Shown here: one piece after another, positions 29,251 to 57,336 of the stretch | Position numbering within the stretch: the first letter of the stretch is position 1 | How the letters are laid out: the number at the start of each line of letters is the position of its first letter | Virus record (IMG/VR): IMGVR_UViG_3300042904_000073 | Location: 83-64,082 of that record | DNA: 64,000 nucleotides | Source: a virus | Lineage: Duplodnaviria > Caudoviricetes | Strand: one strand, 5' to 3' | Notes under the pieces: generated by a model | What the model saw: the letters and a program-made list of their open reading frames with translations, nothing else | Databases searched by the model: none | Told to the model about the DNA's origin: nothing | Made by a program: the position numbers and the translations under genes

Positions 29251-29676
29251 ATGAAGAAAGCGTTATCCCAACTGATCGTATGGGTCTTTGCACCCGTCTT
29301 GAACAGCCGCCGCGATGCCCTGTCTCTGGGCCGGGTCCTGCTGTTCCTCTACACCCTGGCGCTCGTCTGGTCGCTGGTGCTGAACCTGCCGCGCCTGGTA
29401 GCTGTGCAGGCGAACCCGGTAGTGGTCACTGCCCTGGTGTTCCTGCTGGTCGTGGTCTTCCTGGTCCTGGCCGTCTACTGCTTCGGCGACAAACCGTGGG
29501 TCCGAGAGACGGTGCTGCTGCTTGCCAACAAGGCGAGCTTGAGTAGTCCTGGAGACTATGCGGGCGTGACCCGCTACGTCCAGGATCACGCCAAGCCAGC
29601 AGGCCCTAACCCCTACGGCGGGCCGGAAAATGTCAGCCCACAGGCTGAAACGTCAGAGTCCGAGCCTGGTATATGA
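29251..29676 (+). CDS. Putative holin
   Basis: 2-3 TM helices; AAGGAG SD before ATG 29251; upstream of the endolysin. Confidence 0.6.
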   Translation: MKKALSQLIVWVFAPVLNSRRDALSLGRVLLFLYTLALVWSLVLNLPRLVAVQANPVVVTALVFLLVVVFLVLAVYCFGDKPWVRETVLLLANKASLSSPGDYAGVTRYVQDHAKPAGPNPYGGPENVSPQAETSESEPGI

Positions 29677-29698
29677 CGGTGACGCGATTTGTAGTAGA

Positions 29699-29736
29699 GG
29701 GGACGCCGACACCTGCCCGTGCGGCGTCCCCGTTTC
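29699..29736 (+). terminator. Hairpin or terminator
   Basis: GGGGACGCCG...CGGCGTCCCC-GTTT. Confidence 0.5.
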
Positions 29737-29749
29737 GCAGGAGTAAGCT

Positions 29750-30049
29750 GTGCCACCTACCCCATACGCAACAATCTACGTTGTAGCCGGTGAATCGGTT
29801 GAAGGGCTCAACCTCTTCGTGGCCGCAGACCCGGATGTACCGGCCGTCTTGTTCGACTTGACCGGACTGACTGCACTGTCCGAGTTAGATATAGCGGAGT
29901 TGCTACGAGTTGTCAAGCGCGGACAGCGCGTCTATCTGCGACTGGTTCACGAATCACAGCCGTGGCGGACTCTTTCCCAGAAGCAGTGTCTAGTAAACGG
30001 GCTGGAGCCAAATGTGTTCCAGTTCATGAAAAACTCAACAAAGGAGTAG
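29750..30049 (+). CDS. Hypothetical protein
   Basis: AGGAG SD; ends just before the endolysin. Confidence 0.55.
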   Translation: MPPTPYATIYVVAGESVEGLNLFVAADPDVPAVLFDLTGLTALSELDIAELLRVVKRGQRVYLRLVHESQPWRTLSQKQCLVNGLEPNVFQFMKNSTKE

Positions 30050-30052
30050 CCA

Positions 30053-30907
30053 ATGTCTCGTGTTATCCCCGCTTCCTGGATGCCCGACGCTCGCATGGTC
30101 GGCATCGTCAATCACTGGACGGCCGGTCCCTACCAGGCTACGTCGCTCGATAAGCGCGACTACCACATCATCATCGAGGGTGACGGTCGCCTGGTGCGCG
30201 GCAACCATGCCATCCCCGACAACATGAGCGTCCACGATGGCGACTACGCTCCGCACTGTGGACGCCACAATACGGGCTACATCGGCGTCTCCGTGGCGTG
30301 CATGGCCGGTGCCATCGAAGTCCCGTTCTACGCGGGCAAGTCCCCCATGACGAAGAAGCAGTGGGACGTGATGATGGCTGTGAACGCCGACCTGTGCGAG
30401 CGGTACGGCATTCCGGTCACCCCCAAGACCCTCTGCGGCCACGGTGCCATCTATGGGCACTTCGGCGAGGCGAACCTGAAGGGCAAGTGGGACCCGCTGC
30501 GGCTCCCGTGGGACAAGGGCTTGAGCAAGACGGACGCCGACCGGCTGATCCGAGTAGAGACCAGCAGGCTCATGGACGGGTCGAAGAGTCCGGTCCTGCC
30601 CGCCGAAGACCTGAAGCCGATCCTCGTCAACATGAACGGGGTCACGATCAGCGACGACGCCTTCAACGAGAAGAACAAGGTCTGGGTGCCGCTCCGGGTG
30701 CTTGCCGAACCGATGGGTTGTCGGATCGTGGACACGGATGGCAGGACGGTCCTGGTCACGGACAAGACGGGCAAGCCCCATCACCTGGACTTCCAGATCA
30801 AGGGCGGGGTCGGCTTCGTGAAGGTCGGCGACCTCCGCGAGCAGGTAGGCGGCATCGCCACGGAGTGGAACGGAATCCACCGGATTCTCAAGGTAACCCT
30901 GGTTTAG
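30053..30907 (+). CDS. Endolysin: N-acetylmuramoyl-L-alanine amidase with copper-amine-oxidase-N-like C-terminal domain
   Basis: HWTAG, YHIII, H....NTG.IGVS; C-terminal VWVPLR.LAE..G. Confidence 0.85.
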   Translation: MSRVIPASWMPDARMVGIVNHWTAGPYQATSLDKRDYHIIIEGDGRLVRGNHAIPDNMSVHDGDYAPHCGRHNTGYIGVSVACMAGAIEVPFYAGKSPMTKKQWDVMMAVNADLCERYGIPVTPKTLCGHGAIYGHFGEANLKGKWDPLRLPWDKGLSKTDADRLIRVETSRLMDGSKSPVLPAEDLKPILVNMNGVTISDDAFNEKNKVWVPLRVLAEPMGCRIVDTDGRTVLVTDKTGKPHHLDFQIKGGVGFVKVGDLREQVGGIATEWNGIHRILKVTLV

Positions 30908-30920
30908 CAAACGAACGAGG

Positions 30921-30931
30921 TGTGGTATCCT
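30921..30931 (+). promoter_or_regulatory. Extended -10 promoter for the putative sRNA
   Basis: TGTG-G-TATCCT; -35 is poor; predicted start at about 30937. Confidence 0.5.
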
Positions 30932-30936
30932 GGTGT

Positions 30937-31010
30937 GGGATAACACAAAACCTCTTAACAGGCACGGCAAGCTCCAGCGCATCGGGGCTCGCCGTGCCTG
31001 TCTTTTTTTT
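30937..31010 (+). ncRNA. Putative trans-acting antisense sRNA (seed GGGAUAAC) ending in an intrinsic terminator
   Basis: Unstructured 5' GGGATAACACAAAACCTCTT, then a ~17-bp stem (30958-31001) and T8; seed complementary to nine start-proximal sites. Confidence 0.6.
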
Positions 31011-31182
31011 GCAATATCTAAAGACTAACGGAACTCTGAAATGATCCGAAATAAGTTACTACTGGCCTGGTATATGACCAGTAGCTAGTAGAGTTGGCGT
31101 CCGCTGCCCTGGTCTTCAACTCTTCTGGCAAGTAGCACTACTACCTACCTGCTTCCGCTGCCCCGGAAGCCTGGAGTAATGA

Positions 31183-31827
31183 ATGACCGCAGCTACCTGC
31201 GGCAGGAGTGTGCCCTCCTCGCCGCTTTCTCTTGCGCACACAAGCAACCAGGCCGTATCAGTAAAACCGGCCGAGCCCGACCTTGATACGGCTGTCAACT
31301 ATGCCATCCAGGAAGCTCGCCGGTACTGTCGCAAGAACCCCGGCGTAGACGAAGGCGCTGCGGAAAGCGGGGCCATTCAGGGAGCCTGGGACGCCGTAAA
31401 GGACTACGACCCCAAGCGGCCGGGCTTCGAGGGTAAGGTCGCATCCTGGGAGACCTACCTGTTCAACATGGTCCGGTGGGGCATCCTGAAAGCCCTGCGG
31501 CCGACCCAGGCCAAGAGCAGAGCGGCCTTTGACGAGGAGTTCACCATCGTCCCGCTCGACAGTCCCACCACTCGGGTAGACAACGGCCTGGTTCACGAAC
31601 TGGTCGCCGACCCCGCCTCCAATCAGGGCTTCGCCACCATCGACATGGCGAACCTGCTGTCCCTGATCCCCAAGATGGAACACACCATCCTCTTCCGGCG
31701 CTACGGCCTGGAGCAATCCTGCAACGAGGTAGCCCGCAGCCTCGGCGGCGACTGGACCCACATGAAGGTCTGGCGCATGGAGCAGAAGGGTCTACGGCGT
31801 CTCCGTATCCTGCTCGGTCTCGCGTAG
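31183..31827 (+). CDS. RNA polymerase sigma factor (sigma70 family, regions 2 and 4)
   Basis: G.WDAV..YDP.R....W.TY....VRW; C-terminal HTH RRYGL..S..EVA..LG...V..ME..GL.RLR. Confidence 0.85.
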   Translation: MTAATCGRSVPSSPLSLAHTSNQAVSVKPAEPDLDTAVNYAIQEARRYCRKNPGVDEGAAESGAIQGAWDAVKDYDPKRPGFEGKVASWETYLFNMVRWGILKALRPTQAKSRAAFDEEFTIVPLDSPTTRVDNGLVHELVADPASNQGFATIDMANLLSLIPKMEHTILFRRYGLEQSCNEVARSLGGDWTHMKVWRMEQKGLRRLRILLGLA

Positions 31828-31850
31828 CGCCCTGACTACCCTGAATCGGT

Positions 31851-31884
31851 GAAGCCCTGGTCCTAGCGGCCAGGGCTTCTTCTT
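31851..31884. terminator. Terminator between convergent arms
   Basis: GAAGCCCTGG...CCAGGGCTTC-TTCTT. Confidence 0.65.
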
Positions 31885-32377: not shown

Positions 32378-32383
32378 ACAGGT

Positions 32384-32412
32384 ATCTTATCAGTGTTTAC
32401 TTCGGTTGTCAA
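32384..32412 (-). promoter_or_regulatory. Sigma70-type promoter
   Basis: TTGACA-17-TAAGAT with TG extension. Confidence 0.7.
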
Positions 32413-32846
32413 GACTGTCTTGCTGCCTTGGCCTCCGAGAGCATCTGCTGGAAGGTGTCGTCGTTCTCGAAGAACTCCAGTAGCTCCGTCAGTAGCGCCT
32501 GCTCCTCCGGGAGAAGCGGCTGCCCGTCGCTCTGGTCGAGGCCGTCCTGGTTGATGTTCCAGAGGGTCACGGCCGACCGGCGCAGGAGTTGACGCTGCTT
32601 GCGCTTCACCTCGTCTTCCGACTGTGACAGCCGGTGAACGTGGAGCTTCAGTTCGCGGTACTGACGCTGCTTGATCGTGAGTGCCCATTTGGCGCGAGTG
32701 CGCCAGTCGTCAACATCAGGGCTGCGCTCGAATTTGCGCTCGGAAAGCTGCGCCTGAATGTCCTGGATTTCGCCGAGGATCAGGTCACGCAGGTTCTCGG
32801 CTTCGGGCAGGGATAACTTGCTTACTTCGACTTCGTTTACAATCAC
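32409..32846 (-). CDS. Hypothetical coiled-coil protein
   Basis: GGAG SD with GTG start. Confidence 0.6.
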   Translation of the reverse strand: MIVNEVEVSKLSLPEAENLRDLILGEIQDIQAQLSERKFERSPDVDDWRTRAKWALTIKQRQYRELKLHVHRLSQSEDEVKRKQRQLLRRSAVTLWNINQDGLDQSDGQPLLPEEQALLTELLEFFENDDTFQQMLSEAKAARQS

Positions 32847-32941: not shown

Positions 32942-33883
32942 TTACACGAAGGTGGGCATTTCGATCCGGCCTTGGGTCAGGCGCTCGGGCATCTTCGTGA
33001 TGGTCTCGCCCGTGATTTCCTTACGGTGCTGAATCCAGCCGAGGAACGGGCCGCTGCGCACTCGCTGGTCATACGAGGGCTTGGCTACGTGTTCAAACGG
33101 GCTGGTGTGGCGCGGATCGTTCGGCGTCCACGTCTCTGACTTACCGTACGGAGGGTAGAGCAGCTTGGCGTAGGTATCAAGGTCCTTGGCCTGGATGCGC
33201 AGTCCATCGTGGTTCAGGGTAGACACCCGGCAGCAGCGAGCCGTGGAACACTTCTTGAGCAGTTCCCACCATTGCGGCGAGCCCTGCGCGAACCGCTCCG
33301 ACGCCTCGTAGTAGTCCTGCTCGACCACGTAGGGCAGGTGCCACTCGTGGTACTTCAGGCGCTTGGGGCGACTCTCCACGTAGGCCAGGTAGAGCATCCA
33401 GGCGATCTTCTGGAACTCGGGCTGCGCGTCAGGGTGAGCCCGCAGGCCGAAGAAGTTGGGCAGCGCATCGCCGGTCATGGTCAGCACTACGGTGATCCAC
33501 GACCACGGCTCCAGGATGCGGTTCACGACCTGCTTGTGGGCACCGAGCTTCCACAGGATGAACGCGACGAGCAGCGCCGGGAACCGGGCTCCATACCATA
33601 GTTGCGCGAACAGCCAGCGCAGGATCGGGTGAACCTCGTTCCGCGCCTGCATACCCCCCTGGTTCTGCCCCCAATGGACGAACCCGGCCGGATGCTTCAG
33701 GACGGCTTCCAGGACCTTCCTGGTCGGCGTAGCGCGGCTGCTCTGCGCGTTGCGGGCCGAGGCCCGGTGCGTCATGATTTCGGCGTGGATGAAGCGCGGG
33801 TAGGTCGCTTCCATCGTCACGATTTCGGTGTTGTCCGGTGACTTGCTGTGCGCCACGATACGAGCGCGGTATCCGGTGTGCAT
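32942..33883 (-). CDS. thyX: Flavin-dependent thymidylate synthase
   Basis: PRFIHAEIMTHR...RNAQSSRA, HKQVVNR.LEPW, LR.HPDAQPE, H.SPFEH; start MHTGY with GAGG SD. Confidence 0.9.
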   Translation of the reverse strand: MHTGYRARIVAHSKSPDNTEIVTMEATYPRFIHAEIMTHRASARNAQSSRATPTRKVLEAVLKHPAGFVHWGQNQGGMQARNEVHPILRWLFAQLWYGARFPALLVAFILWKLGAHKQVVNRILEPWSWITVVLTMTGDALPNFFGLRAHPDAQPEFQKIAWMLYLAYVESRPKRLKYHEWHLPYVVEQDYYEASERFAQGSPQWWELLKKCSTARCCRVSTLNHDGLRIQAKDLDTYAKLLYPPYGKSETWTPNDPRHTSPFEHVAKPSYDQRVRSGPFLGWIQHRKEITGETITKMPERLTQGRIEMPTFV

Positions 33884-33905
33884 GGGATAACTTCCTCTCT
33901 CTCGG

Positions 33906-34265
33906 TTAGTGCCCGAGCTTTCGTAGATACTCGACAGCGGCGTCCAATTCCTTGCGCATCTTCTCGGCTTCGCTGCGCCGGATGCCGCCGCCCACGGTGC
34001 TGTCTTCGTCCAGGAACCATTCCTCTTCGTCGTCCTCGGACTGGCGAAGCTCACGGAAGCTGATGTAGGGTTCACCCTTGGCGACCGGCACCTGCGCCGT
34101 GTAAGTGATGCCGCCTTGCGTGATGGTCTTCTTCTCGCGCCGAGCATTCCAGCAGACGCAGACGTAGCTGCCGAACGACTTTGCCAGGCAGCTACTTCCG
34201 GTAGCGTACTTGATCGTGTCGTCTTCAGGTATCACGGCATCGGGCGGATTGAACGGGTCACTCAT
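33906..34265 (-). CDS. Hypothetical protein
   Basis: 4-nt overlap with the upstream gene. Confidence 0.6.
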   Translation of the reverse strand: MSDPFNPPDAVIPEDDTIKYATGSSCLAKSFGSYVCVCWNARREKKTITQGGITYTAQVPVAKGEPYISFRELRQSEDDEEEWFLDEDSTVGGGIRRSEAEKMRKELDAAVEYLRKLGH

Positions 34266-35065
34266 TGCTTGTTCTTCTCCAGGAAGTCAGCGATCTGACG
34301 ATGAACGTAGTCGTGTTCAGCCGGAACCGCGTTGCGAATCTTGGTCAGGTTCTCCTCGATCCGGCGCAGGTTCACCAGCGCATTGTCGGACGTGAATACT
34401 TCCTGGCCGCGCTCGTCCATCAGTGACGCACCGCGCAGGTAGGTGCCAAGCCACGGCAGAACCTCGCGGGCGTCGGCTACGCAGTCAATGACGAGCTTCG
34501 ATAGCGTGGTAATCGGGCTTTCCAAACCCTCGCTGGCTTCTACGGCGAGCCAGAAATCGCTGGACCGTGCCCGTTCCCAGATCGTGCCGTCGAACTCCTT
34601 CTCCTGCTCCACCGTCTCGTGCGGGCAAGACCAGTAGACCCAGAAGGTGTCGCCGATCTTGTCAAAGCCGGGCCGTGCCATCTTCCCTTCTACGCGCAGG
34701 TAAATGTCGCCCGGCATCCCCGGAGTAGGAGGCCATTTCAGGAAGATGGCTTGCAGGCGCTCGGCGAGCTTCCGGCCTTCTTTCGTCTTACGGGCTGGCG
34801 TGTAGAACCAGTCGTTCTCACCGAGCTTCCAGAGTTCGCTCGGTATGCTTTGCCGCATCTGGTTCCGCGTCTTGGACTCTACCGGATGGATACCGATAGC
34901 TCGTTTGAACCCGTGGCCGGAACTGACGACCAGTTCGTGGCCGGGGTATTCCGCCTTCAGTGCGTCAGCCTGCTCGTTGAACAGGTCGTTCCGACGCTGA
35001 AGCTCCTCGTACATTTCCAGCACTGATTCATGCTGCGTGCGGTAATGGTAGTTCCTGTCTCTCAC
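34262..35065 (-). CDS. Hypothetical protein
   Basis: 267-aa ORF in the operon. Confidence 0.65.
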   Translation of the reverse strand: MRDRNYHYRTQHESVLEMYEELQRRNDLFNEQADALKAEYPGHELVVSSGHGFKRAIGIHPVESKTRNQMRQSIPSELWKLGENDWFYTPARKTKEGRKLAERLQAIFLKWPPTPGMPGDIYLRVEGKMARPGFDKIGDTFWVYWSCPHETVEQEKEFDGTIWERARSSDFWLAVEASEGLESPITTLSKLVIDCVADAREVLPWLGTYLRGASLMDERGQEVFTSDNALVNLRRIEENLTKIRNAVPAEHDYVHRQIADFLEKNKQ

Positions 35066-35493: not shown

Positions 35494-35548
35494 TTAACGG
35501 TTTAACCATCCTTTCCGCTGGTAAGGGTGCCCGTCTCCAGGCACCCTT

Positions 35549-35580: not shown

Positions 35581-38496
35581 CTACGAACAGCCGGTGCTGG
35601 TGCCGCAGTCGGGGCAGATGTAGCACTTCCCTGCGGGCTGCGTGATCGAATGGCACTCGGGACACTGCGGGCCGGTCAGGCAGGCAAAGGCGCTAGGCCT
35701 CGCCATTTCCCGCTCCATCATGTCCGTCACGATGGACGCTGCTCGGTGAAGGGCTGCTTCCCGATCCATGCCTTCGGGCAGGTTGATCGTGATTACCGGA
35801 GCAGTCCTGCCGCTACTCTGCTCCGGGGTCCCGAAACGCAGGTTGAGCCACCGGAAGATGTAGTCGAGGATCGACTTGGCCTGCGGAATGTCCTGGTTGC
35901 CGGTCCAGCCGCTCGGCTCGAAGCGCATGTGGCTGTACTTGTCGATCATCTTGGAGAGCGGCACGCCGTATTGCAGGCCGAGGCTCACAGCCGTGGCGAA
36001 CCCGTCTGCGAATCCGGCCACGGTCGAACCTTCCTTGCTCATGGTGATGAACAGTTCGCCCGGCGTGCCGTCTTCGTAGAGCCCCACGGTCACGTAGCCT
36101 TCCACCCCGCCAATGTCGAACTTGTGGGTGATGGCGTGGCGCTCGCGGGGCAGCTTCCGGCGTACCGGCGCTCCGATCCCCGAGAGACGGGCTTCCAGTT
36201 CCTTGATGCGGTCCCGAAGCTCCTGGGTCTCCCCGTCGTCGGTGATCCCTACCAGGGTCTCGGCGTCCTGCTTCTTGACTTCGAGAGGCTGGCTCCGCTT
36301 GCAGCCGTCGCGGTAGATGGCTACGCACTTGACACCGAGCTTCCAGGCCTGATAGTAGGCCTGCTCAATGTCCTCCACCGTGGCCGTGTTCGGCATGTTC
36401 ACGGTCTTGGAGATTGACATTGACAGGAAAGGCTGGATGGCTCCGAGCATCTTCATGTGCCCCTGCCACGAGATAGTGCGGAAAGCATCACTCGGAGCGA
36501 AGGCACAGTCGAACACCGGCAGGTGTTGCGGCTTCAGGTAGACGCAGTTGTCCATCGCCCCCGTGTCGGCGACCCATCCCAGGATGGCTACTTGCTCGCC
36601 TTCCGAGTAACCGAGAGCCTTCAGCGCGTCGGCCACGGCCTGGTTCGCCATCTTCTCCACGCCACCGCCGACGAGGTTCTTGTAGGCGACGAGGCTAATA
36701 CACGGCTCGATGCCCGTGGTGTCGCAGTCCATGATGAACGAGATCGTGCCGGTGGGAGCCTCCAGAGTCACGTTCGCGTTGCGGAAGCCGAACTGACGGC
36801 CGAGATCGAGAGCAGCATCCCAGAGTACGTCGCCGTCCGCGTGAAGCTGACGAGCGATGGGATGATCCAGGCTGACCCCGGCGTTCATTGCCTGTGCCCC
36901 GGTATGGGCTCTAGCGTGGCGACCGAGCACGCCAAGCATCGCATACCAGTTGCGATCCCACTCCGCGAACGGCCCGCCGCATGCGCCTGCGATGGTAGCA
37001 CTGCCCGCGTAAGCCCGCGCCGTCAGCGTGGAGCAGAGCATGGCGGCGATACCGCGCCCCTGGTCGCTGTCGTAAGCAAGCCCGAGCTTCATCAACATCG
37101 CACCCAGGTCGCAGTGCCCGAGCCCCAGGTTACGGAAAACCTTCGTCCAGTAAGCGATGTCTCCCGTGGGGAAGTCGCCGCCGGCCACGATGATTTCCAT
37201 CGCCAGGATCGCGATGTCTACGGTGTGCAGGTAGCCTGTCGTGTCGAAGCCGTAGTTGCCCGGCTCGCCGGTCAGGTACTTCGTCAGCCGGATGCTTGCC
37301 AGGTTGCAGGACGTGTTGTCCCGCGAGATGTACTCGCTGCACGGATTCGACGCCCAGATCCAGAACGAGTTCGGGCAGGTGTTCCCGGAGTTGATATGGT
37401 CATCGAACTGGACACCGGGGTCGCCGCAGAACCAGGTCGCCTCGGCGATTTCGCGTAGCACCTGGCGGGCCGAATACTCGGCGCACTGGTGGCCCGTCTT
37501 GACATACTTCGTCCAGTAGGTGACGCCGCGCTCATAGGCTTCCATGAACTCCTCGGTGATCCGCACCGAGTGATTGGCATTCTGGAAGTCCACGAGCGAG
37601 TAGGCGTTGCCCGGCGCGTTGAACATCACCGGGTAGCCTGCGTCGATCAGCGTGTGCGCTACCTTCTCGGCGGCTGACTTGGCGCGGATGAAGCCCGGCG
37701 TGCCGTCGTTGTTCTCCAGAATATCCGGGTGGTCGCAGCGCATAACGACCATCTTGGCCGCTCGCCGGGTCGTGCCCCCGCTCTTGATCTGACCGGCGTT
37801 GCAGTCGGCGACCTTCATGAACGACAGCGGCCCGCTGGCTCGCCCGCCGAGGGACAGGCTCTCGCGGCTGGACCGGATGCGGCTCACGTCGGCACCGGAC
37901 CCGGAACCCCGCTTGAAGATGCGCGTCTCAACCGTGTACCAGTTGGACAGGTCGTCCAGGGTATCCTCGACCGGGACGATGAAGCAGGCGCTCCCCTGCT
38001 GCGCGATTCCGTCGATGCCGAAGTTGAACCAGACGGGCGAGTTGAACGCGAAGTGCTGGTTCAGCAGCATGAAGGACAGTTCGTCGTAGTGCGCATCCCG
38101 GTCGGCGCTGCTGGCGTAGTAGCCGTAGTCGTCGCCCCATCCGGTGATCCGCTGCACGATCCGGCGCACCAGCACCTCGAAGTCCTGGACGCCGTTGCCA
38201 TTGTCGCAGACCTTCAGATACTTCGCGGCCACGATCTTACGGGCACGCTCCGAGAAGAACGCCGGGAACCGGCACTTTACCACCTTGGCCTCGTCGCCGG
38301 GCAGGGTTACGTCCGTGGTCTCCCATTGGATTGCACTGTAAGGGTCGGTATGCGCGGACGTGTAATGCCGCTTGACCGTGACGCCGGGCCAGGTCTTGCC
38401 GCCTGGGAAATGATCCTTGCACATGCCCGGCTGGTACTTCAGCCACTCCGGGATAACAACGTCTTCTCTGCCGATGTTCGGCTTGGTTGATTGCAT
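35581..38496 (-). CDS. nrdJ: Class II (B12-dependent) ribonucleotide reductase with TSCPD and Zn-ribbon C-terminus
   Basis: FNSPVWFN, SACFI, GGTTRRAAKM, NPCSE, CNLAS, APTGTIS, SISKTVNMP, YRDG. Confidence 0.95.
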   Translation of the reverse strand: MQSTKPNIGREDVVIPEWLKYQPGMCKDHFPGGKTWPGVTVKRHYTSAHTDPYSAIQWETTDVTLPGDEAKVVKCRFPAFFSERARKIVAAKYLKVCDNGNGVQDFEVLVRRIVQRITGWGDDYGYYASSADRDAHYDELSFMLLNQHFAFNSPVWFNFGIDGIAQQGSACFIVPVEDTLDDLSNWYTVETRIFKRGSGSGADVSRIRSSRESLSLGGRASGPLSFMKVADCNAGQIKSGGTTRRAAKMVVMRCDHPDILENNDGTPGFIRAKSAAEKVAHTLIDAGYPVMFNAPGNAYSLVDFQNANHSVRITEEFMEAYERGVTYWTKYVKTGHQCAEYSARQVLREIAEATWFCGDPGVQFDDHINSGNTCPNSFWIWASNPCSEYISRDNTSCNLASIRLTKYLTGEPGNYGFDTTGYLHTVDIAILAMEIIVAGGDFPTGDIAYWTKVFRNLGLGHCDLGAMLMKLGLAYDSDQGRGIAAMLCSTLTARAYAGSATIAGACGGPFAEWDRNWYAMLGVLGRHARAHTGAQAMNAGVSLDHPIARQLHADGDVLWDAALDLGRQFGFRNANVTLEAPTGTISFIMDCDTTGIEPCISLVAYKNLVGGGVEKMANQAVADALKALGYSEGEQVAILGWVADTGAMDNCVYLKPQHLPVFDCAFAPSDAFRTISWQGHMKMLGAIQPFLSMSISKTVNMPNTATVEDIEQAYYQAWKLGVKCVAIYRDGCKRSQPLEVKKQDAETLVGITDDGETQELRDRIKELEARLSGIGAPVRRKLPRERHAITHKFDIGGVEGYVTVGLYEDGTPGELFITMSKEGSTVAGFADGFATAVSLGLQYGVPLSKMIDKYSHMRFEPSGWTGNQDIPQAKSILDYIFRWLNLRFGTPEQSSGRTAPVITINLPEGMDREAALHRAASIVTDMMEREMARPSAFACLTGPQCPECHSITQPAGKCYICPDCGTSTGCS

Positions 38497-45383: not shown

Positions 45384-45627
45384 GGGTAACACTCTCCTCT
45401 CGGGCGGGACGCTTACTTCGCCTCGCCTTCTGAATACTACCGCCGTTGTCGCCCTTTGTCAAGAGCTTTCTCAAGCGGTCGATTTCCGCGAAGGCCGAGT
45501 TCAAGTCACCCTTCGCGTGGTTCTGGAAGTTGATGCGGTGCCCGTAGTTCGTCGGGCACCGCTCCAGGTCTACCAGGCGCTTCCGCGCAGCTTCCTCTCC
45601 GGGGTATACCCGAACCTTAACTGCCAT
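45376..45627 (-). CDS. Small hypothetical protein
   Basis: Overlaps the MTase stop; L.AEIDRLR motif. Confidence 0.45.
   Translation of the reverse strand: MAVKVRVYPGEEAARKRLVDLERCPTNYGHRINFQNHAKGDLNSAFAEIDRLRKLLTKGDNGGSIQKARRSKRPAREESVTHE
45434..45462 (-). promoter_or_regulatory. Sigma70-type promoter
   Basis: TTGACA-17-TAGTAT. Confidence 0.65.
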
Positions 45628-46963: not shown

Positions 46964-46970
46964 GGGATAA

Positions 46971-47612
46971 CTACCTCGCGTGCCGGGATAGCTCCCAGGC
47001 TCGCCGTTCGATTAGGTGCAGCGCCTCGTTGACACGGGCGGCACGCTCGTTGCTTTGCAGGTGGACGACGTTGCGCCTGCCGTCCAGCATTCCCCGAACC
47101 AGCAGGTCGATCTGCTCTCGGAAGTAAGGCTTATCTTCCCGGCAGCCGTCAAGGTCGTTCGGGATATTCGGGGGCACGACCACGTAAATGCAGTCGATGC
47201 GGCCAAGCTGGCGCTGCACTACGTGGCGGCAGTGATCCAGGGTATCCCGTACCAGCGGATGGTCGCTGCGTCCCAGGTGCGCCACGGTGTAGGCGTAGAC
47301 CGAAACCGGGCTCCGGTCGGCGACTGCTGCGCCCACGGGCTCGTGCCGCTGGTGAGCCAGGTCCATGATCTGGCGCTGAACCTGCGCTATCTCCTGCGGG
47401 TCAAAGTCGCGGTAGCTGGCGTCAGCTTCCCACTCGTTGAACACCTCGCGCACCGGCTCTGCGATGGTGGGCAGGCCGAGGATGCGAGCCAGGGACTTCA
47501 GCAACGTGGACTTGCCCGTGCTGTGGGTCCCTTCCAGGATGATCTTGACCTGCTCACGCTTCAGGTGCCCGGCGAGCGCGGAGAAGTCATTGCCGCCTAC
47601 CATTGAGCCCAC
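46971..47612 (-). CDS. P-loop NMP kinase (AAA_28/NadR-like)
   Basis: EGTHSTGKSTL, E..R, ADRS.V...AY, DG.R. Confidence 0.8.
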   Translation of the reverse strand: MGSMVGGNDFSALAGHLKREQVKIILEGTHSTGKSTLLKSLARILGLPTIAEPVREVFNEWEADASYRDFDPQEIAQVQRQIMDLAHQRHEPVGAAVADRSPVSVYAYTVAHLGRSDHPLVRDTLDHCRHVVQRQLGRIDCIYVVVPPNIPNDLDGCREDKPYFREQIDLLVRGMLDGRRNVVHLQSNERAARVNEALHLIERRAWELSRHAR

Positions 47613-47992: not shown

Positions 47993-48006
47993 CTGGGATA
48001 ACGCTC

Positions 48007-49552: not shown

Positions 49553-49588
49553 GGGATAACCTACCTTTCTCTTCGTTGTCGATGTTGG

Positions 49589-52445: not shown

Positions 52446-52448
52446 CTA

Positions 52449-52859: not shown

Positions 52860-54587
52860 ATGAGTGATCCCAACCCAACAATCGTGACCCTGGAGAAAGG
52901 TCGCGTATACGTGCGCTCGCACTTCAACTACAAGGAGCGATGCACGCAGATACCGGGTGGCCGGTGGGACAAGTCTGCCACGGCTTGGAACTACCCTATC
53001 TCGCCCGCTACCGCACAAGCGATCCTGGATGCGTTTAGAGGAACGCCCGTGCGTGCGGACGCGGAATTCCGCAAGCTCGTGCAGAAGGCGAAGGAGCAGC
53101 GAGAACTGGCAGCGGTCAAGACGGCTACGGACTTGCCCGACATTCCCTACACCAGAACGAAGCCGTGGCTGCACCAGCTACGCGCGTACCATTTTGCGTA
53201 TCCCATGCAGGCGTGCATGTTGGCGCTCGACATGGGCTGCGGCAAGTCGAAGATCACCGTGGACCTGATCGTCAACCGGGGCCACAAGCGAACCCTACTC
53301 TGCGCCCCGCTTTCGGTAATCCAGGAATGGCCGCACCAGTTCAAGGCCCACGCCGGTAAGCCGGTGATCGTCTGCCCGCTGGACAATAAGGCAGGCTCGG
53401 TGAAGGACAAGGTGACAGCCGCGAAGATGGCGCTGTTCCAAGCCGAACAGGAAGACAAGCAGGTCGTGATCGTCACCAACTACGAGACGGTCTGGCGTGA
53501 ACCCTTCGGCCCGGTCTATGAGAAAGTCGAGGACCCGGAGACCGGCAAGATGGTTCAGGGTGACCGGATCATCGACAAGGGCTTCGCTATGCAGGCAGGC
53601 TTCGACCTGGTAGCCCTGGACGAAATCCACCGCATCCAGGCCGCAAACGGGAAGGCCAGCAAGTTCCTCGGTCGCCTGGGAGATAAGGTGCCCTACAAGC
53701 TCGGGCTCACTGGCACTCCCTTCTCTTCAGGGCCGTTGTCAATCTACGCCCAATACCGCTTCCTGGACAAAGGCATCTTCGGCTCCAGCAATAAGGAGTT
53801 CAAGAGCCGGTATGCCGTGCAAGGCGGCTTCGGCGGCAACCAGGTAGTCGGCTTCCAGAACGAGGAAGAACTCCAGCGGAAGTTCTACTCCATCGCCTTC
53901 CGGGTCGAGAGCCGCGACGTGCTGGACCTGCCCGAAGAACAGCATATCGTGCGCACCGTCACTCTGTCGGCGGCTGCCATGAAGGCTTACAAGGAACTTG
54001 AGAAGCAGTTCATCGCCAAGTTCCAGGAAGGCGAGGTAACCGTCACCAATGCGCTCACGAAGCTCCTGCGCCTCCAGCAGCTAACTAGCGGCTATGCCCG
54101 GCTGGACGAGACCTTCGAGGAAGAGGGCAAGACCATCCGGGTCGATCACGAGAAGCAGAAGGTACTCGAAGACATTTTCGAGGACCTGGATAAGCGCGAG
54201 CCGATCATCGTGTTTGCCCGCTTCACCCACGACCTGGAAGCCGTCGCCGAAGTGTGCAAGAAGCAGGGTCGGCGCTGTGGGTTCCTGGACGGCAGCCGTA
54301 AAGACCTGGAAGCCTGGCGCAACGGCGAATACGACGTGCTGGCCGTTCAGATCAAGGCCGGTGGCACCGGGGTCAACGCGACCCGCGCCAAGTACTGCGT
54401 CTACTACTCGATGGGCTACTCTCTGGCCGACTACCGGCAGTCGCTCGCTCGTGTGATGCGACCCGGCCAGAAGCACAATGTAACTTATTACCACCTTGTC
54501 GCCGAAAAGACAGTGGATCAGAAGGTCTATAAGGCCTTGGATACCAAGCAGGAGGTCGTCCAGAGCATCCTATCTGACCTCCGCTAG
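52860..54587 (+). CDS. SNF2-family helicase with N-terminal HARP-like domain
   Basis: DMGCGKS, DEIH, LTGTP, LLRLQQ, GGTGVN, QSLARVMRPGQ. Confidence 0.92.
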   Translation: MSDPNPTIVTLEKGRVYVRSHFNYKERCTQIPGGRWDKSATAWNYPISPATAQAILDAFRGTPVRADAEFRKLVQKAKEQRELAAVKTATDLPDIPYTRTKPWLHQLRAYHFAYPMQACMLALDMGCGKSKITVDLIVNRGHKRTLLCAPLSVIQEWPHQFKAHAGKPVIVCPLDNKAGSVKDKVTAAKMALFQAEQEDKQVVIVTNYETVWREPFGPVYEKVEDPETGKMVQGDRIIDKGFAMQAGFDLVALDEIHRIQAANGKASKFLGRLGDKVPYKLGLTGTPFSSGPLSIYAQYRFLDKGIFGSSNKEFKSRYAVQGGFGGNQVVGFQNEEELQRKFYSIAFRVESRDVLDLPEEQHIVRTVTLSAAAMKAYKELEKQFIAKFQEGEVTVTNALTKLLRLQQLTSGYARLDETFEEEGKTIRVDHEKQKVLEDIFEDLDKREPIIVFARFTHDLEAVAEVCKKQGRRCGFLDGSRKDLEAWRNGEYDVLAVQIKAGGTGVNATRAKYCVYYSMGYSLADYRQSLARVMRPGQKHNVTYYHLVAEKTVDQKVYKALDTKQEVVQSILSDLR

Positions 54588-54600
54588 TCTGGAGGTTAAG

Positions 54601-55246: not shown

Positions 55247-55255
55247 AGGAAGCGC

Positions 55256-55630
55256 GTGCGAAGACTACTGCTAGTGTTACTGCTTGCCGTCCCGGTCGGA
55301 GCTAAACCGACCGGGCGGAAGGTCCGATTAGTTACTACTGCCTACTGCCTCGGTCCCTGTCGCCGTTGCGGCACCAGCGGGATCACCAGACTCGGCTCCC
55401 GGTCGATGCGCGGTGTAGCCGTGGGCTCGAAGCGCCGGGCCATCGCTCTTGGTTCCACGGTTACCATCCCCGGATACGGCCGTGGCCGGGTAGACGACGT
55501 AGGCGGCGGGGTGCGAGGAAACCAGCTTGACCTGCGGTTTCGATCCCACGAGCGAGCCGAGAAGTGGGGCCGGAAGGTGATCGAGGTGACGATCCAAAAT
55601 CGGCCAAAGAAAAATCGAAAAAGCCCTTGA
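55256..55630 (+). CDS. Secreted 3D-domain protein (MltA-like peptidoglycan hydrolase fold)
   Basis: Signal peptide; TAYC, IPGYG, DDVGG.V.GNQLDL, A.KWGR. Confidence 0.85.
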   Translation: MRRLLLVLLLAVPVGAKPTGRKVRLVTTAYCLGPCRRCGTSGITRLGSRSMRGVAVGSKRRAIALGSTVTIPGYGRGRVDDVGGGVRGNQLDLRFRSHERAEKWGRKVIEVTIQNRPKKNRKSP

Positions 55631-55655
55631 CTTCGGTTGAGAACGGTGGTAACTT
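55627..55655 (+). promoter_or_regulatory. Sigma70-type promoter
   Basis: TTGACT-17-TAACTT with TG extension. Confidence 0.65.
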
Positions 55656-55704
55656 ATGAACGTCGCTGATAACAACAACAACAGCGACGGAGAGGAGAGG
55701 CCTG

Positions 55705-55974
55705 ATGCCAACGCAGACGGCTGAAGTCGGCGACCGAAGGAAGCGCCTGAACGAGTGGGCTGACACCAACCCGTTCCGAGTGTGGCGCAAGACCAGCGGA
55801 CAGAACGCCTCCGACTTCGGACACATCGGAACACCGAACAGCTTTAAGAATTGGGAGCGGGGCCACGTCCGACCGAGCGCCGAGAAGATGGCCGATCTAG
55901 CCTCTGAAATGGGGATCAGCCAGGTCAAGCTGGAAGCGCAGTGGACGGATTGGGAAGTAGCCCGCCCCCGGTAA
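55705..55974 (+). CDS. XRE/Cro-like HTH regulator
   Basis: WERG..RPS......LA..MG motif. Confidence 0.75.
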   Translation: MPTQTAEVGDRRKRLNEWADTNPFRVWRKTSGQNASDFGHIGTPNSFKNWERGHVRPSAEKMADLASEMGISQVKLEAQWTDWEVARPR

Positions 55975-55986
55975 CAGGGGGTCTGA

Positions 55987-56385
55987 ATGAGCGCAGAGAG
56001 ACAACCTAGCAACCTGATCGAAGAGTATGCGCAGCGTGCGGTGAAGATCAGGGAGCTTGAAGAGGAAGCCGCCGCTCTCAAGACGAAGAACGAGGAAGCG
56101 AGGGAGACCTTGCTCCGGGTATTCGAGGAGACCGGCGAGAACAGCATCAAGACCGTGTTCGGGACGGTGTATCTGCACCGCACCGTGGTACTGAAGCTGG
56201 AGCGAGGCGTCGAACACGTTTGCAAGGCCTTGAAGATGATGGGGCTGGAGAAGTTCGTCACCGAAAGAATTGCGAACGAAAAGGAATTGGCGCGGCATAT
56301 AGACGAGCAGAACCTCGCTGACGCGCTTGCAGATGAAGTCAAGATCGTAGAGCTTTACCACCCGAGGGTAAGGAGGCCCAGGTAA
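55987..56385 (+). CDS. Hypothetical coiled-coil phage protein
   Basis: IKT..GTVY motif; precedes the SSB gene. Confidence 0.65.
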   Translation: MSAERQPSNLIEEYAQRAVKIRELEEEAAALKTKNEEARETLLRVFEETGENSIKTVFGTVYLHRTVVLKLERGVEHVCKALKMMGLEKFVTERIANEKELARHIDEQNLADALADEVKIVELYHPRVRRPR

Positions 56386-56387
56386 CC

Positions 56388-57221
56388 ATGTCAAATCAGA
56401 ATGCAATCGTCCCTGTAAGCCAGTTCGCTATCGCGCAGATGGGTGCGGCGGAAGTCGCCGAAATCATGGAAGCGAACCTCGGCGGAACCCAGATCAGCGT
56501 CGGCGACTTCGACCGGGTGAAGGTGCCGAGCGGCGGCGGAACCATCTGGGAGGTGCCCACCCTCGAAGGCCCCCGGCCGGAACGCTTCATCACTGGCGTG
56601 ATCGTCTACTGGCGCGACAACCGGGCCATGTGGAAGAAGACCGTCGAGGAAGGCGGCAGCGGCCAGGCCCCCGACTGCACCGGCCGTCTGATCCCTCTGG
56701 AAGTCGGCAGCGCGTCGAAGGTGTGGACCGGCAAGGGTGTCCGGTGGGAAGGCGACGACAGCGGCCCGCACGACTGCTCGGCGTGTCCGTACAACGACTT
56801 CGGCTCCGCTGACAAGGGCGAGGGTAAGAAGTGCAAGGAAACGCGGATGCTCGCCATCCTGACGCCGGAAGGCTTCATGCCGCTGCTCCTGAACATCCCG
56901 CCCACGTCGCTCAAGCTGATCCGGCAGTTCTGCCTGCGCCTGGCGGGCCGGGGTATCCCGCTGCACGGGGTGCAGGTGAAGATCGGGCTGAACAAGGCCA
57001 AGAACAAGGGCGGCACGGACTACTGCGAGGTGGTGCCCGAACTGGTCGAGACGCTGGACGCCGCGAACCGGGCGCTGATGAAGGCCTACGTGGACCAGAT
57101 CAAGCCGGTCCTGGAGACCGTCGAAGCCGAGGAGTCCGCAGCGGCGGCGGGCGGCACCGGCTCCAGCTTCGCAGAGGGCGAGGGCGGCGACCTGGAAGAC
57201 CTGGACACGGACGCCGAGTAA
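56388..57221 (+). CDS. Putative single-stranded DNA-binding protein
   Basis: PDC, C..CPYN.FGS..G.GKKCK, IPPTS; acidic C-terminal tail. Confidence 0.7.
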   Translation: MSNQNAIVPVSQFAIAQMGAAEVAEIMEANLGGTQISVGDFDRVKVPSGGGTIWEVPTLEGPRPERFITGVIVYWRDNRAMWKKTVEEGGSGQAPDCTGRLIPLEVGSASKVWTGKGVRWEGDDSGPHDCSACPYNDFGSADKGEGKKCKETRMLAILTPEGFMPLLLNIPPTSLKLIRQFCLRLAGRGIPLHGVQVKIGLNKAKNKGGTDYCEVVPELVETLDAANRALMKAYVDQIKPVLETVEAEESAAAAGGTGSSFAEGEGGDLEDLDTDAE

Positions 57222-57336
57222 GTTCAACCTGGCCCGGCCGTAAGCCGATAGTCAAAAGGATGGTGAAGGGCTTGTCTAAACGGCAAGCCCTTCACTGTCT
57301 CAAACAAGAATTAGCCAGGCAGGAGGTTATCCCACA

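What the first reader, a model, noticed from the sequence alone, without database searches (positions are those of the whole stretch)
29262..57333. Start-associated octamer GTTATCCC, always in mRNA sense near start codons
Seen between SD and ATG: thyX (33884-33891), MTase (46964-46971), the 47992 gene (47995-48002), the Top6A-like gene (49553-49560) and primase (57326-57333). Seen in the first 16 codons: holin (29262-29269), endolysin (30062-30069), the 32846 gene (32810-32817) and nrdJ (38450-38457). Near matches occur at Gp157 (GTGTTACCC-ATG), the 28232 gene (GGTATCCC-ATG) and SNF2 (GTGATCCC). The only other copies I spotted are the sRNA seed and two gene-internal copies in antisense orientation (21005, 22115). 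A rough chance expectation, assuming ~62% GC, is 1-2 copies, against 12 seen. The orientation follows the mRNA on both strands, which argues for an RNA-level signal: an sRNA target, or a site for a translational regulator (compare T4 RegA and mycobacteriophage start-associated sequences).
Basis: partly seen in the sequence, partly recalled or inferred. Interest (0 to 1): 0.85.

Follow-up and report, generated by a model that had tools for sequence, protein, structure and literature searches.

The report
Start-linked octamer in a soil phage
An eight-base sequence sits at the very start of at least ten genes of an uncultured soil phage, always in the sense of the message, and probably marks them for joint control of protein synthesis, possibly by a matching antisense RNA made just behind the phage's lysis gene.

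Summary
GTTATCCC occurs 12 times in the window, against 0.93 expected. Nine copies are in mRNA sense between -11 and +47 of a predicted start. Five of these fill the gap between the Shine-Dalgarno sequence and the ATG. Four lie in codons 4-16, in two reading frames. A 13th copy lies in 2.6 kb of extra sequence from the same phage (L009). It is again in sense, at +14 of a start, and in the third reading frame.

GTTATCCC is the most start-associated 8-mer in the window (p 5.6e-10). None of 50 control phage loci shows a comparable signal. None of 154 orthologues of the topoisomerase-like gene carries it. The signal is therefore specific to this lineage and acts at nucleotide level. The closest known analogue is the start-associated sequences of cluster K mycobacteriophages, whose function is still unknown.

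The only complementary copy in non-coding sequence lies in the endolysin 3'UTR, in a stable hairpin just before an intrinsic terminator. This segment is a partial inverted copy of the thyX start region.

My best reading, at about 0.4, is that the octamer is the target of this antisense RNA. An RNA-binding protein is the main rival, at about 0.3. I found no RNA data and no close relatives to test either reading.

The parts
33884..33891 (-). Octamer between the Shine-Dalgarno sequence (GAGG) and the ATG of thyX (32942-33883); 0 nt to the ATG
   Evidence: Pfam Thy1; start verified
46964..46971 (-). Octamer between the Shine-Dalgarno sequence and the ATG of the DNA methylase gene (45617-46963); 0 nt to the ATG. 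The TAG stop of the upstream gene overlaps its first G.
   Evidence: Pfam N6_N4_Mtase
47995..48002 (-). Octamer between the Shine-Dalgarno sequence (GGAG) and the ATG of a 131-aa gene of unknown function (47597-47992); 2 nt to the ATG
   Evidence: no family found
49553..49560 (-). Octamer directly before the ATG of the topoisomerase-like (Toprim) gene 48560-49552
   Evidence: phrog_6247 'DNA topoisomerase'; 0 of 154 orthologues in other phages carry the octamer here
57326..57333 (+). Octamer between the Shine-Dalgarno sequence (GGAGG) and the ATG of the primase/polymerase gene 57337-59142; 3 nt to the ATG; 11 nt complementary to the 3'UTR element
   Evidence: phrog_2478
29262..29269 (+). Octamer at +12..+19 of the holin-like membrane protein gene (29251-29676), read as ..G TTA TCC C..
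   Evidence: hydrophobic segments
30062..30069 (+). Octamer at +10..+17 of the endolysin gene (30053-30907), read as GTT ATC CC.; 10 nt complementary to the 3'UTR element
   Evidence: Pfam Amidase_2
32810..32817 (-). Octamer at +30..+37 of a 145-aa gene (32409-32846), read as ..G TTA TCC C..
38450..38457 (-). Octamer at +40..+47 of nrdJ (35581-38496), read as GTT ATC CC.
   Evidence: Pfam ribonucleotide reductase class II
30917..30955 (+). Hairpin 1 of the endolysin 3'UTR: GAGGUGUGGUAUCC / loop / UGGGAUAACAC..CCUC. The 3' arm holds the complement of the octamer (30936-30944). The 5' arm holds a near-copy of the motif (GGUAUCC) preceded by GAGG.
   Evidence: free energy -50.9 kcal/mol for 30905-31012, z -6.2
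30960..31010 (+). Intrinsic terminator: a 17-pair hairpin followed by a run of eight T. It ends the lysis-gene transcript.
33846..33891 (-). thyX start region that resembles the reverse complement of the 3'UTR element beyond the octamer (29 of 38 aligned columns)
   Evidence: flank score 23; 0 of 2000 shuffles; above the 99.9th percentile of 20,000 random 32-mers; net pairing gain -26.5 kcal/mol
28224..28231 (+). Near match GGTATCCC directly before the ATG of gene 28232-28543
52864..52871 (+). Near match GTGATCCC at +5..+12 of the SNF2 helicase gene (52860-54587)
45384..45392 (-). Near match with one base missing, GTGTTACCC, directly before the ATG of the Gp157-like gene (44202-45383)
21005..21012 (-). 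Antisense copy inside a tail gene; probably chance
22115..22122 (-). Antisense copy inside a tail gene; probably chance

Best explanation
GTTATCCC(A) is a lineage-specific, start-associated element read on the mRNA. It marks at least ten genes of this phage. Five carry it between the Shine-Dalgarno sequence and the AUG: thyX, a DNA methylase, a 131-aa protein, a topoisomerase-like protein and the primase. Five carry it in codons 4-16: a holin-like protein, the endolysin, a 145-aa protein, NrdJ, and a 133-aa protein on L009. No virion gene carries it.

I infer that it is the docking site of a trans-acting regulator of translation initiation. The most likely partner is the complementary sequence UGGGAUAAC in the 3'UTR of the endolysin message, which lies in a hairpin just before the intrinsic terminator. 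This 3'UTR segment is a partial inverted copy of the thyX start region.

In this model the RNA accumulates with the lysis-gene transcript and pairs with the octamer. That would occlude the ribosome-binding region and turn down nucleotide-metabolism and replication genes, thyX most strongly. It might also temper the lysis genes in cis or in trans. This would be an RNA counterpart of T4 RegA.

Shown here: the positions, orientation and frames of the octamer, the complementarity, the hairpin and terminator, and the similarity to thyX. Inferred: that the 3'UTR RNA is made, that it pairs, the direction of the effect, and its timing. I give about 0.7 to 'an RNA-level signal recognised in trans' and 0.4 to this particular partner.
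For: Position and strand:
- 9 of 12 window copies, plus the one copy on L009, are in sense at -11..+47 of a start.
- It is the best of 41,455 8-mers for start association, and this holds with automatic gene calls.
- 0 of 50 control phage loci show a comparable signal.

Nucleotide-level rather than protein-level selection:
- The coding copies use three reading frames.
- Two copies use TTA, 1.1% of Leu codons.
- The core is 8 nt plus an A at +9 in 7 of 10 copies, and the flanks are not conserved.

Geometry and distribution:
- The Shine-Dalgarno sequence lies upstream of the octamer, so the octamer cannot be a promoter for the gene it precedes.
- 0 of 25 virion-module starts carry it, against 9 of 47 other starts (p 0.016).
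- 0 of 154 orthologues of the topoisomerase-like gene carry it, and its density in 80 other phage loci is 1.5 per 64 kb.

The candidate partner:
- The only complement of the octamer in non-coding sequence is at 30936-30944 (+).
- It lies between the endolysin stop codon and a hairpin with a U8 tail.
- 9 of 10 sense copies match it over 9 nt or more: primase 11, endolysin 10.
- The thyX start region pairs with it far beyond the octamer. The net gain is -26.5 kcal/mol against -12.3 for the next best, and 7 of the 8 best of 72 start regions carry the motif or a near match.

Host: the endolysin's relatives are in phages of Alphaproteobacteria (at least 42 of 46 records). From recall, these hosts have Hfq and sRNAs derived from 3'UTRs.
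Against: - The putative seed is not free. GGGAUA has an unpaired probability of 0.05 or less in the predicted fold.
- Once folding costs are counted, 5 of the 10 motif-bearing start regions gain only -1.6 to -7.2 kcal/mol. That lies within the spread of the 62 start regions without the exact octamer, which have a mean of -3.9. Their best is -11.1 (the near match 28232), and the best with no resemblance to the motif is -9.7.
- The 3'UTR copy shares descent with the thyX site. It is therefore not independent evidence. It could be a thyX-only antisense element or a relic of a rearrangement.
- The copies at +30 and +40 lie outside the region where pairing normally blocks 30S binding (recalled 'five-codon window').
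- Predicted accessibility of the octamer equals that of controls (0.46 against 0.46).
- Ten identical 8-mers with almost no wobble variants near starts would fit a protein site equally well. Only 2 of 31 one-mismatch variants lie within a dozen bases of a start. A third, the wobble variant GTTATCTC at 49911(-), sits at about +30 of gene 49948; that offset is my own arithmetic.
- Three tandem GTTATTCC-containing 13-mers in a non-coding region hint at a DNA-binding protein with a similar site.
- The host assignment is uncertain: the primase's weak relatives are mostly in actinobacteriophages.
Confidence: 0.4

Rival explanations
1. The octamer is the single-stranded RNA binding site of a phage- or host-encoded protein that represses or activates translation of a regulon, as T4 RegA does. 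The 3'UTR element would then be unrelated to the regulon: a thyX-specific antisense, or a relic.
For: The positional, strand and frame evidence is the same as for the best explanation. Ten identical 8-mers suggest a sequence-specific reader. Three motif-bearing genes of unknown function (47597-47992, 32409-32846, L009:102-503) could encode an autoregulated binder. The 3'UTR seed is sequestered, and most targets pair no better than background. Papers from 2011 to 2025 still leave open whether an RNA or a protein reads the cluster K start-associated sequences (passages of PMC3203893, PMC11373665, PMC12699233).
Against: No RNA-binding or RegA-type family was found. I scanned 52 query frames against Pfam, covering 50 non-virion genes, with thyX scanned at two lengths and 33906-34265 scanned twice. 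I also scanned 10 against PHROGs. The virion-module genes after 403-732 were not scanned. Two ESM Atlas look-ups gave nothing. This reading does not explain why the one complementary copy sits in a transcribed hairpin-terminator unit.
Confidence: 0.3
2. The octamer is read on DNA. It would be an asymmetric operator for a phage DNA-binding protein that blocks or modulates transcription in an orientation-dependent way, like the stoperators of mycobacteriophage L5.
For: Stoperators are short, asymmetric, oriented with transcription and scattered between genes. PMC3203893 mentions them in contrast to start-associated sequences; the further details are recalled. A tandem array of three 13-mers beginning GTTATTCC lies in a 421-nt non-coding region. 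The site before gene 47992 matches that 13-mer at 11 of 13 positions. A reversed copy in non-coding DNA is natural for a DNA site.
Against: The conserved core is only 8-9 nt, which is short for an asymmetric DNA operator. Five copies sit at a fixed 0-3 nt before the ATG and downstream of the Shine-Dalgarno sequence, which a DNA reader has no reason to respect. No repressor or integrase was seen in the 80% of the genome that is held.
Confidence: 0.1
3. The octamer acts in cis only. It would tune translation through its position in the spacer, or by pairing with ribosomal RNA, as proposed for the T7 gene 10 enhancer.
For: The octamer stretches the distance from the Shine-Dalgarno sequence to the AUG to 10-11 nt in all five spacer copies. 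Most other genes here, and the 154 orthologues, have about 5-9 nt. In the primase leader, GGAGGUUAUCCCAC differs at only 2 of 14 positions from the complement of the 16S rRNA 3' end (my comparison with a recalled rRNA sequence).
Against: The invariant U at position 3 is exactly the mismatch with the 16S tail. The better-matching variant GTGATCCC (5 copies) is not start-associated. In the other four spacer copies, the Shine-Dalgarno sequence and the octamer cannot both be in register with the rRNA. The coding copies at +30 and +40 cannot act as spacers.
Confidence: 0.08
4. The octamer has no regulatory function. It would be a junction or boundary sequence left by recombination between gene modules, or a chance clustering.
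For: Repeated regulatory cassettes at gene boundaries drive shuffling in T4-type phages (PeSLs; abstract of PMC2839356). The 3'UTR holds an inverted fragment of the thyX start region adjoining the octamer, as a motif-mediated rearrangement would leave.
Against: Chance is excluded by the positional statistics and by the out-of-sample copy on L009. Boundary sequences would not be kept inside coding regions in three frames at the cost of rare codons. Nor would they be absent from all 25 virion-module starts.
Confidence: 0.05

Closest known systems
Start-associated sequences (SAS) of cluster K mycobacteriophages (Pope et al. 2011, PMC3203893; passages read)
   Same: A short asymmetric repeat in one orientation, within a few bases of start codons (mostly ATG), in 11-19 non-structural genes. 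It is attached to unrelated gene families, is specific to one lineage, and has an unknown function. Subcluster K1 phages also carry one reversed copy away from any start. In Anaya I found that copy in the 385-bp non-coding gap between gp96 and gp97.
   Different: The sequence is unrelated: the SAS consensus occurs at chance level here (3 matches against 1.8 expected). SAS is 13 bp and contains the Shine-Dalgarno core. This octamer is 8-9 nt and lies downstream of the Shine-Dalgarno sequence. Half of its copies lie inside the first 16 codons, against 6 of 125 SAS copies inside ORFs (PMC12699233). No inverted-repeat ESAS element accompanies it. The host is probably an alphaproteobacterium, not a mycobacterium.
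c4 antisense RNA of phages P1 and P7 (as described in the review PMC12197685; passage read)
   Same: A phage-encoded trans-acting RNA with short complementary stretches displayed in a structured RNA. It pairs around the ribosome-binding site of a phage message and blocks translation.
   Different: c4 acts on a single operon (ant) and belongs to the immunity system. Here at least ten dispersed genes share the target. The candidate RNA is a 3'UTR, its seed is predicted to be paired rather than in a loop, and nothing has been shown experimentally.
T4 RegA translational repressor regulon (review PMC3014915 seen only in a search listing; the rest is recalled)
   Same: Many phage messages for DNA-metabolism genes are controlled together through a site that overlaps the start region.
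   Different: RegA is a protein and its sites are degenerate and AU-rich. No RegA-family protein was found among the proteins scanned.
Hfq-type sRNAs derived from 3'UTRs of enterobacteria, such as CpxQ and SroC (recalled; no paper read)
   Same: The regulatory RNA is the 3' end of a protein-coding message. It ends in the gene's own intrinsic terminator with a U tail, and a short seed lies just upstream.
   Different: The seed here is buried in a stable hairpin. No processing site, Hfq dependence or expression is known.
Stoperators of mycobacteriophage L5 (mentioned in PMC3203893; details recalled)
   Same: Many copies of a short asymmetric site oriented with transcription.
   Different: Stoperators are 13 bp, are read on DNA by the repressor, and are not locked to the spacer between the Shine-Dalgarno sequence and the ATG.

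Membership tests
Cluster K start-associated sequences (SAS) | Matches the consensus GGGATAGGAGCCC with at most 2 mismatches | tested here: not met
   3 matches in the window against 1.8 expected, and 25 of 100 shuffles reach 3. The same search finds 16 in 30.8 kb of phage Anaya.
Cluster K start-associated sequences (SAS) | Lies a few bases upstream of start codons, in one orientation | tested here: met
   5 copies lie 0-3 nt before an ATG, all in sense. A further 5 lie at +10..+47, which SAS rarely do.
Cluster K start-associated sequences (SAS) | Contains the Shine-Dalgarno core | tested here: not met
   The Shine-Dalgarno sequence lies 0-3 nt upstream of the octamer as a separate element.
Cluster K start-associated sequences (SAS) | Restricted to non-structural genes | tested here: met
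   0 of 25 virion-module starts against 9 of 47 others. Two of the nine are lysis genes.
Trans-acting base-pairing sRNA with a target regulon | A non-coding RNA unit with its own 3' end (intrinsic terminator) | tested here: met
   Hairpin plus U8 tail at 30960-31010 on the + strand; fold z -6.2. No Rfam family matches.
Trans-acting base-pairing sRNA with a target regulon | Accessible (single-stranded) seed | tested here: not met
   Unpaired probability is 0.05 or less for GGGAUA in the predicted ensemble. Processing could free the seed, but that is untested.
Trans-acting base-pairing sRNA with a target regulon | Complementarity to targets beyond what chance gives | tested here: inconclusive
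   Clear for thyX (-26.5 kcal/mol; flank similarity 0 of 2000 shuffles). For the others the match is the 8-11-mer itself, and 5 of 10 fall within background once folding is counted.
Trans-acting base-pairing sRNA with a target regulon | The RNA is expressed | not testable with these tools
   No usable RNA data (see Tried and rejected).
Trans-acting base-pairing sRNA with a target regulon | Seed and targets co-vary in relatives | not testable with these tools
   No relative closer than 57% (topoisomerase-like protein) could be fetched.
T4 RegA-type translational operator | A RegA-family or other RNA-binding repressor is encoded by the phage | tested here: not met
   None found among 52 query frames (50 non-virion genes) scanned against Pfam and 10 against PHROGs. 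The virion-module genes after 403-732 and the missing ~20% of the genome were not scanned.
L5-type stoperator | An asymmetric site of about 13 bp read by a phage repressor on DNA | tested here: inconclusive
   The conserved core is only 8-9 nt and no repressor was identified. A tandem array with a similar 8-mer exists at 62414-62451.

The most novel reading that the evidence does not exclude
A lytic phage has made a trans-acting antisense RNA by placing an inverted copy of the thyX start region into the 3'UTR of its endolysin message. At least ten dispersed phage genes have then acquired the matching 8-9-nt 'address' at their starts. One late RNA would thereby shut down, or time, a whole regulon of nucleotide-metabolism, replication and lysis genes. 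If so, start-associated sequences in general, including the unexplained ones of cluster K mycobacteriophages, may be docking sites for phage antisense RNAs. K1 members also carry one reversed copy in non-coding DNA.
Probability: 0.3. Interest if true: 0.85.

Novelty: new variant of a known kind. Interest (0 to 1): 0.62.

Why it matters
Start-associated sequences were described in 2011, and papers of 2024 and 2025 still call their role unknown. This is a second, independent example. It has a different sequence, a different position relative to the Shine-Dalgarno sequence, and a different host group. Unlike the first example, it comes with a concrete candidate partner, a complementary hairpin-terminator unit in a 3'UTR. 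That gives a direct experiment: compensatory mutations in reporter fusions. If the RNA partner is real, it would be a phage regulon run by a 3'UTR-derived antisense RNA that arose by inverted duplication of a target's start region. It would also suggest where to look in cluster K phages.

Tried and rejected
Relatives. These searches found nothing closer than the near-identical contig L009:
- a near-identity DNA search in GenBank phages;
- protein-guided scans of IMG/VR with the endolysin, terminase (alone and as alignment A1), right-end gene, L009 gene and primase;
- scans of JGI contigs and of species genomes.

Terminase relatives at 71% and 62% identity, and a topoisomerase-like relative at 69-70%, exist only as proteins from contigs I could not fetch. 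The co-variation test could therefore not be run.

Expression. No RNA holder was listed.

Strain variation. Laying four DNA runs showed a near-identical strain in run X2. The difference table printed 40 rows and hid 595, so I cannot say whether the motif sites vary. Runs X3-X5 gave only 151-253-nt pieces.

Accessibility. The octamer is no more single-stranded than control windows.

Duplex energies. Simple duplex energies without folding costs were not meaningful, so I replaced them with dimer-minus-monomer energies.

thyX hairpin. The hairpin in the thyX start region is not significant (z +1.0).

TTA codons. The position of TTA codons is not significant as a statistic (p 0.26).

Known RNA families. 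Rfam found nothing at gathering thresholds. In the 3'UTR it found only a sub-threshold microRNA-hairpin match to the terminator. No tRNA genes were found.

Promoter reading. Rejected, because the Shine-Dalgarno sequence lies upstream of the octamer.

DnaA box and integron core-site resemblances. Considered from memory and rejected, because they do not fit beyond TTATCC or GTTA.

16S rRNA 3'-tail pairing. Rejected as the main reading, because the invariant U is the mismatch.

A start-associated 8-mer in control locus L085 proved to be a coding tandem repeat.

Structure and atlas look-ups of motif-bearing unknown proteins gave nothing.

The supplements of PMC3203893 list the reversed sites in Adephagia, Angelica and CrimD.

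Full report
**What the window is.** The window is 64,000 of the 64,082 bases of an IMG/VR virus record, classed as linear and about 80% complete. It has about 60% G+C.
- Genes at 1-31.8 kb are on the + strand: terminase, virion genes, a lysis cassette and a sigma-factor-like gene.
- Genes at 32.0-52.4 kb are on the - strand: ThyX, NrdJ, DNA polymerase III alpha, MazG, dCTP deaminase, Gp157, a DNA methylase and a topoisomerase-like protein.
- Genes at 52.9-64 kb are mostly on the + strand (one predicted gene, 62783-63064, is on the - strand): SNF2 helicase, primase/polymerase and a UvrD-like helicase.

No GenBank phage is similar at DNA level. A second IMG/VR contig, L009, is 99.7% identical over 5,477 bases and adds 2,639 bases to the left of the record. 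A near-identical strain is present in a soil metagenome of another study (run X2). The endolysin's relatives are in phages of Alphaproteobacteria: at least 42 of 46 records, with Rhizobium PPF1 at 50% and Sinorhizobium PBC5 at 45%. I take that as the likely host group. The primase's weak matches are mostly to actinobacteriophages, which argues the other way.

**The observation.** GTTATCCC occurs 12 times, at exactly the coordinates given, against 0.93 expected from dinucleotide shuffles. The count alone is not decisive. In this coding-dense genome several codon-driven 8-mers are 11- to 17-fold over a zero-order expectation, while by my own arithmetic from the base frequencies this one is about 7-fold over.

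The exceptional feature is position.
- With 72 curated starts, 8 of the 12 copies fall in the 3.3% of positions within -20..+45 of a start in sense. This gives p = 5.6e-10, the best of 41,455 8-mers and ahead of all Shine-Dalgarno words.
- The nrdJ copy, at +40..+47, falls just outside that window.
- With an automatic gene caller that knows nothing of the motif, the result is 7 of 12 (p = 2e-8).
- Five copies are followed by ATG within 0-3 nt (p = 1e-4).
- In 50 control loci of at least 15 kb from other phages, the best non-purine 8-mers reached p of 3.5e-6 or weaker. The top three were a word containing ATG, a word containing GGAG, and a coding tandem repeat. This comparison is imperfect, because those loci are 15-21 kb and the window is 64 kb. 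One 20-kb piece of the window reaches 2.3e-6 on its own.
- An out-of-sample check also succeeded. The 2.6 kb of new sequence on L009 holds one copy, in sense, 13 nt after the ATG of a 133-aa ORF with a good Shine-Dalgarno sequence.

**Anatomy.**
- In the five spacer copies the order is Shine-Dalgarno sequence, 0-3 nt, octamer, 0-3 nt, ATG. This stretches the distance from the Shine-Dalgarno sequence to the ATG to 10-11 nt.
- The five coding copies are read in all three frames: GTT ATC CC (endolysin, NrdJ), G TTA TCC C (holin-like gene, gene 32846) and cGT TAT CCC (L009). No peptide motif can therefore explain them.
- Two copies use TTA, the rarest Leu codon here (17 of 1594). As a positional statistic, however, this is not significant.
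- The conserved core is 8 nt plus an A at +9 in 7 of 10 copies. Upstream is only a purine-rich tendency, and nothing else is conserved.
- One-mismatch variants are not start-associated as a class. Two of 31 lie within a dozen bases of a start. By my own arithmetic, a third, GTTATCTC at 49911(-), sits at about +30 of gene 49948.
- No virion-module start carries the motif: 0 of 25, against 9 of 47 elsewhere (p = 0.016).
- The two antisense copies, at 21005 and 22115, are the number that chance predicts.

**Lineage specificity.** The topoisomerase-like gene belongs to a very large phage and prophage family. I fetched 160 loci with orthologues at 40-58% identity. In the 154 where a start could be placed, none has the octamer before the ATG, and most show a Shine-Dalgarno sequence at ordinary distance. 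Across the 80 IMG/VR loci the octamer occurs 32 times in 1.38 Mb, or 1.5 per 64 kb, which is background. The motif therefore belongs to this phage lineage and not to the genes it precedes.

**The twelfth copy.** At 30937-30944 the + strand reads GGGATAAC, the complement of the motif.
- It lies 30 nt after the endolysin stop codon and 15 nt before a 17-pair hairpin followed by eight T. That is an intrinsic terminator for the + strand, the strand on which the lysis genes are transcribed.
- The stretch 30905-31012 folds into two hairpins (-50.9 kcal/mol, z = -6.2).
- In the first hairpin the complement of the motif pairs with GGUAUCC, a one-mismatch copy of the motif that is itself preceded by GAGG.
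- This is the only complement of the motif in any non-coding gap of the window.
- Its reverse complement resembles the thyX start region well beyond the octamer: 29 of 38 aligned columns, covering GGATACC and TCGT..TCGT.
- The flank score of 23 was reached by 0 of 2000 shuffles and lies above the 99.9th percentile of 20,000 random 32-mers. No other motif site shows such similarity.
- When the 3'UTR RNA is folded together with each of 72 start regions and the monomer energies are subtracted, thyX gains -26.5 kcal/mol. The next are primase -12.3, L009 -11.6, the near match 28232 -11.1, endolysin -10.0, a non-motif start (14463) -9.7, and the near matches SNF2 -9.1 and Gp157 -8.9. The remaining five motif sites gain -1.6 to -7.2, which is background.

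**Interpretation.** The facts point to a signal read on the mRNA near the ribosome-binding site, most likely by a trans-acting factor. The complementary hairpin-terminator unit behind the endolysin gene is the obvious candidate. In this model it would be made as the 3' end of the lysis message and would pair with the octamer, and extensively with thyX. That would reduce translation of nucleotide-metabolism and replication genes late in infection. It might also act on the holin-like and endolysin starts of its own message.

Several points count against this reading.
- The seed is buried in the hairpin.
- Half the targets pair no better than background once folding is counted.
- The 3'UTR copy shares descent with the thyX site, so it is not independent evidence.
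- Two sites lie 30-40 nt into the coding region.
- Nothing is known about expression.

A sequence-specific RNA-binding protein explains the ten identical 8-mers equally well, but I found no candidate. A DNA-level, stoperator-like reading is kept alive by three tandem 13-mers beginning GTTATTCC at 62414-62451. It does not fit the short core or the fixed position between the Shine-Dalgarno sequence and the ATG.

**Comparison with what is known.** The nearest described phenomenon is the start-associated sequences of cluster K mycobacteriophages. These are 13-bp repeats 3-7 bp before the starts of 11-19 non-structural genes, in one orientation. The authors left open whether an RNA or a protein reads them (PMC3203893, passages). 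Papers of 2024 and 2025 still call the role unknown (PMC11373665 and PMC12699233, passages). The present motif works like an SAS but is not a member of that family:
- the consensus is absent;
- it excludes the Shine-Dalgarno core;
- half of its copies are inside coding sequence.

PMC3203893 notes that the four K1 phages each carry one reversed SAS that is not at a start. In Anaya I located it (one mismatch) in the 385-bp non-coding gap between gp96 and gp97, downstream of a terminator-like hairpin. The paper reports no such copy for TM4 or Pixie, so the parallel is limited. For the proposed mechanism the closest precedents are the c4 antisense RNA of P1 and P7 (PMC12197685, passage) and, from recall, enterobacterial sRNAs derived from 3'UTRs. 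T4 RegA is the protein counterpart.

**Verdict.** It is a new variant of the start-associated-sequence phenomenon, with a candidate antisense partner that makes the mechanism testable. The mechanism itself is inferred. I give 0.7 to an RNA-level signal recognised in trans, 0.4 to the 3'UTR RNA as its reader, and 0.3 to a protein reader.

Noticed in passing
window 62362-62782 and 35502-35509: TTAACCAT occurs 5 times against 0.43 expected. Four copies lie in the 421-nt non-coding region at 62398-62630, and one lies just before gene 35065-35493, within a shared 14-mer GGTTAAACCGTTAA. From recall, TTAACCAT is a CtrA half-site of Alphaproteobacteria, which would fit the host guess and suggest host cell-cycle control or an origin region.
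   Followed up: partly
window 62414-62451: Three tandem 13-bp units, GTTATTCCAGATC on the - strand (TRF score 69). Their first 8 bases differ from the octamer by one base. They could be iterons or an operator. Any relation to the octamer is unclear.
   Followed up: partly
L009:1-2639 (left of window position 1): A near-identical contig extends the genome by 2.6 kb. It encodes a 133-aa protein carrying the octamer, a 217-aa protein with sigma-70 region 4 (Pfam), and a 604-aa helicase-like protein.
   Followed up: partly
window 31183-31827 (+): A second sigma-factor-like gene (phrog_351, E 2.4e-5; helix-turn-helix-like C-terminus). It stands alone between the lysis-cassette terminator and the convergent terminator, behind an AT-rich 170-nt gap.
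   Followed up: no
L010:29871-29883 (Mycobacterium phage Anaya, record 59870-59882): The single reversed start-associated sequence of Anaya (one mismatch) lies in a 385-bp non-coding gap after a terminator-like hairpin. On the transcribed strand it reads as the complement of the SAS, including CCUCC.
   Followed up: partly
window, several starts (52860, 45383, 59220, 52386, 63064): ATGAGTG is the next most start-associated 7-mer that is neither a sub-word of the octamer nor a Shine-Dalgarno word (6 of 9 copies at starts). This reflects a preference for Met-Ser-(Asp/Glu/Val/Gly) N-termini.
   Followed up: no
window 2452-5052 (+): An 866-aa ORF whose C-terminal 300-380 residues match proteins annotated as Clp protease or major capsid protein in Pseudomonas and Bordetella phages. 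It looks like a fused portal/protease/capsid-type reading frame, or a long scaffold-capsid fusion.
   Followed up: no
L044 (IMG/VR contig, 47% G+C), 7601, 12500, 14374: In an unrelated phage locus, three of four copies of the octamer lie on the opposite strand of GGGATAAC-ATG. There the complement directly precedes start codons, so it is probably just a Shine-Dalgarno sequence plus spacer.
   Followed up: no
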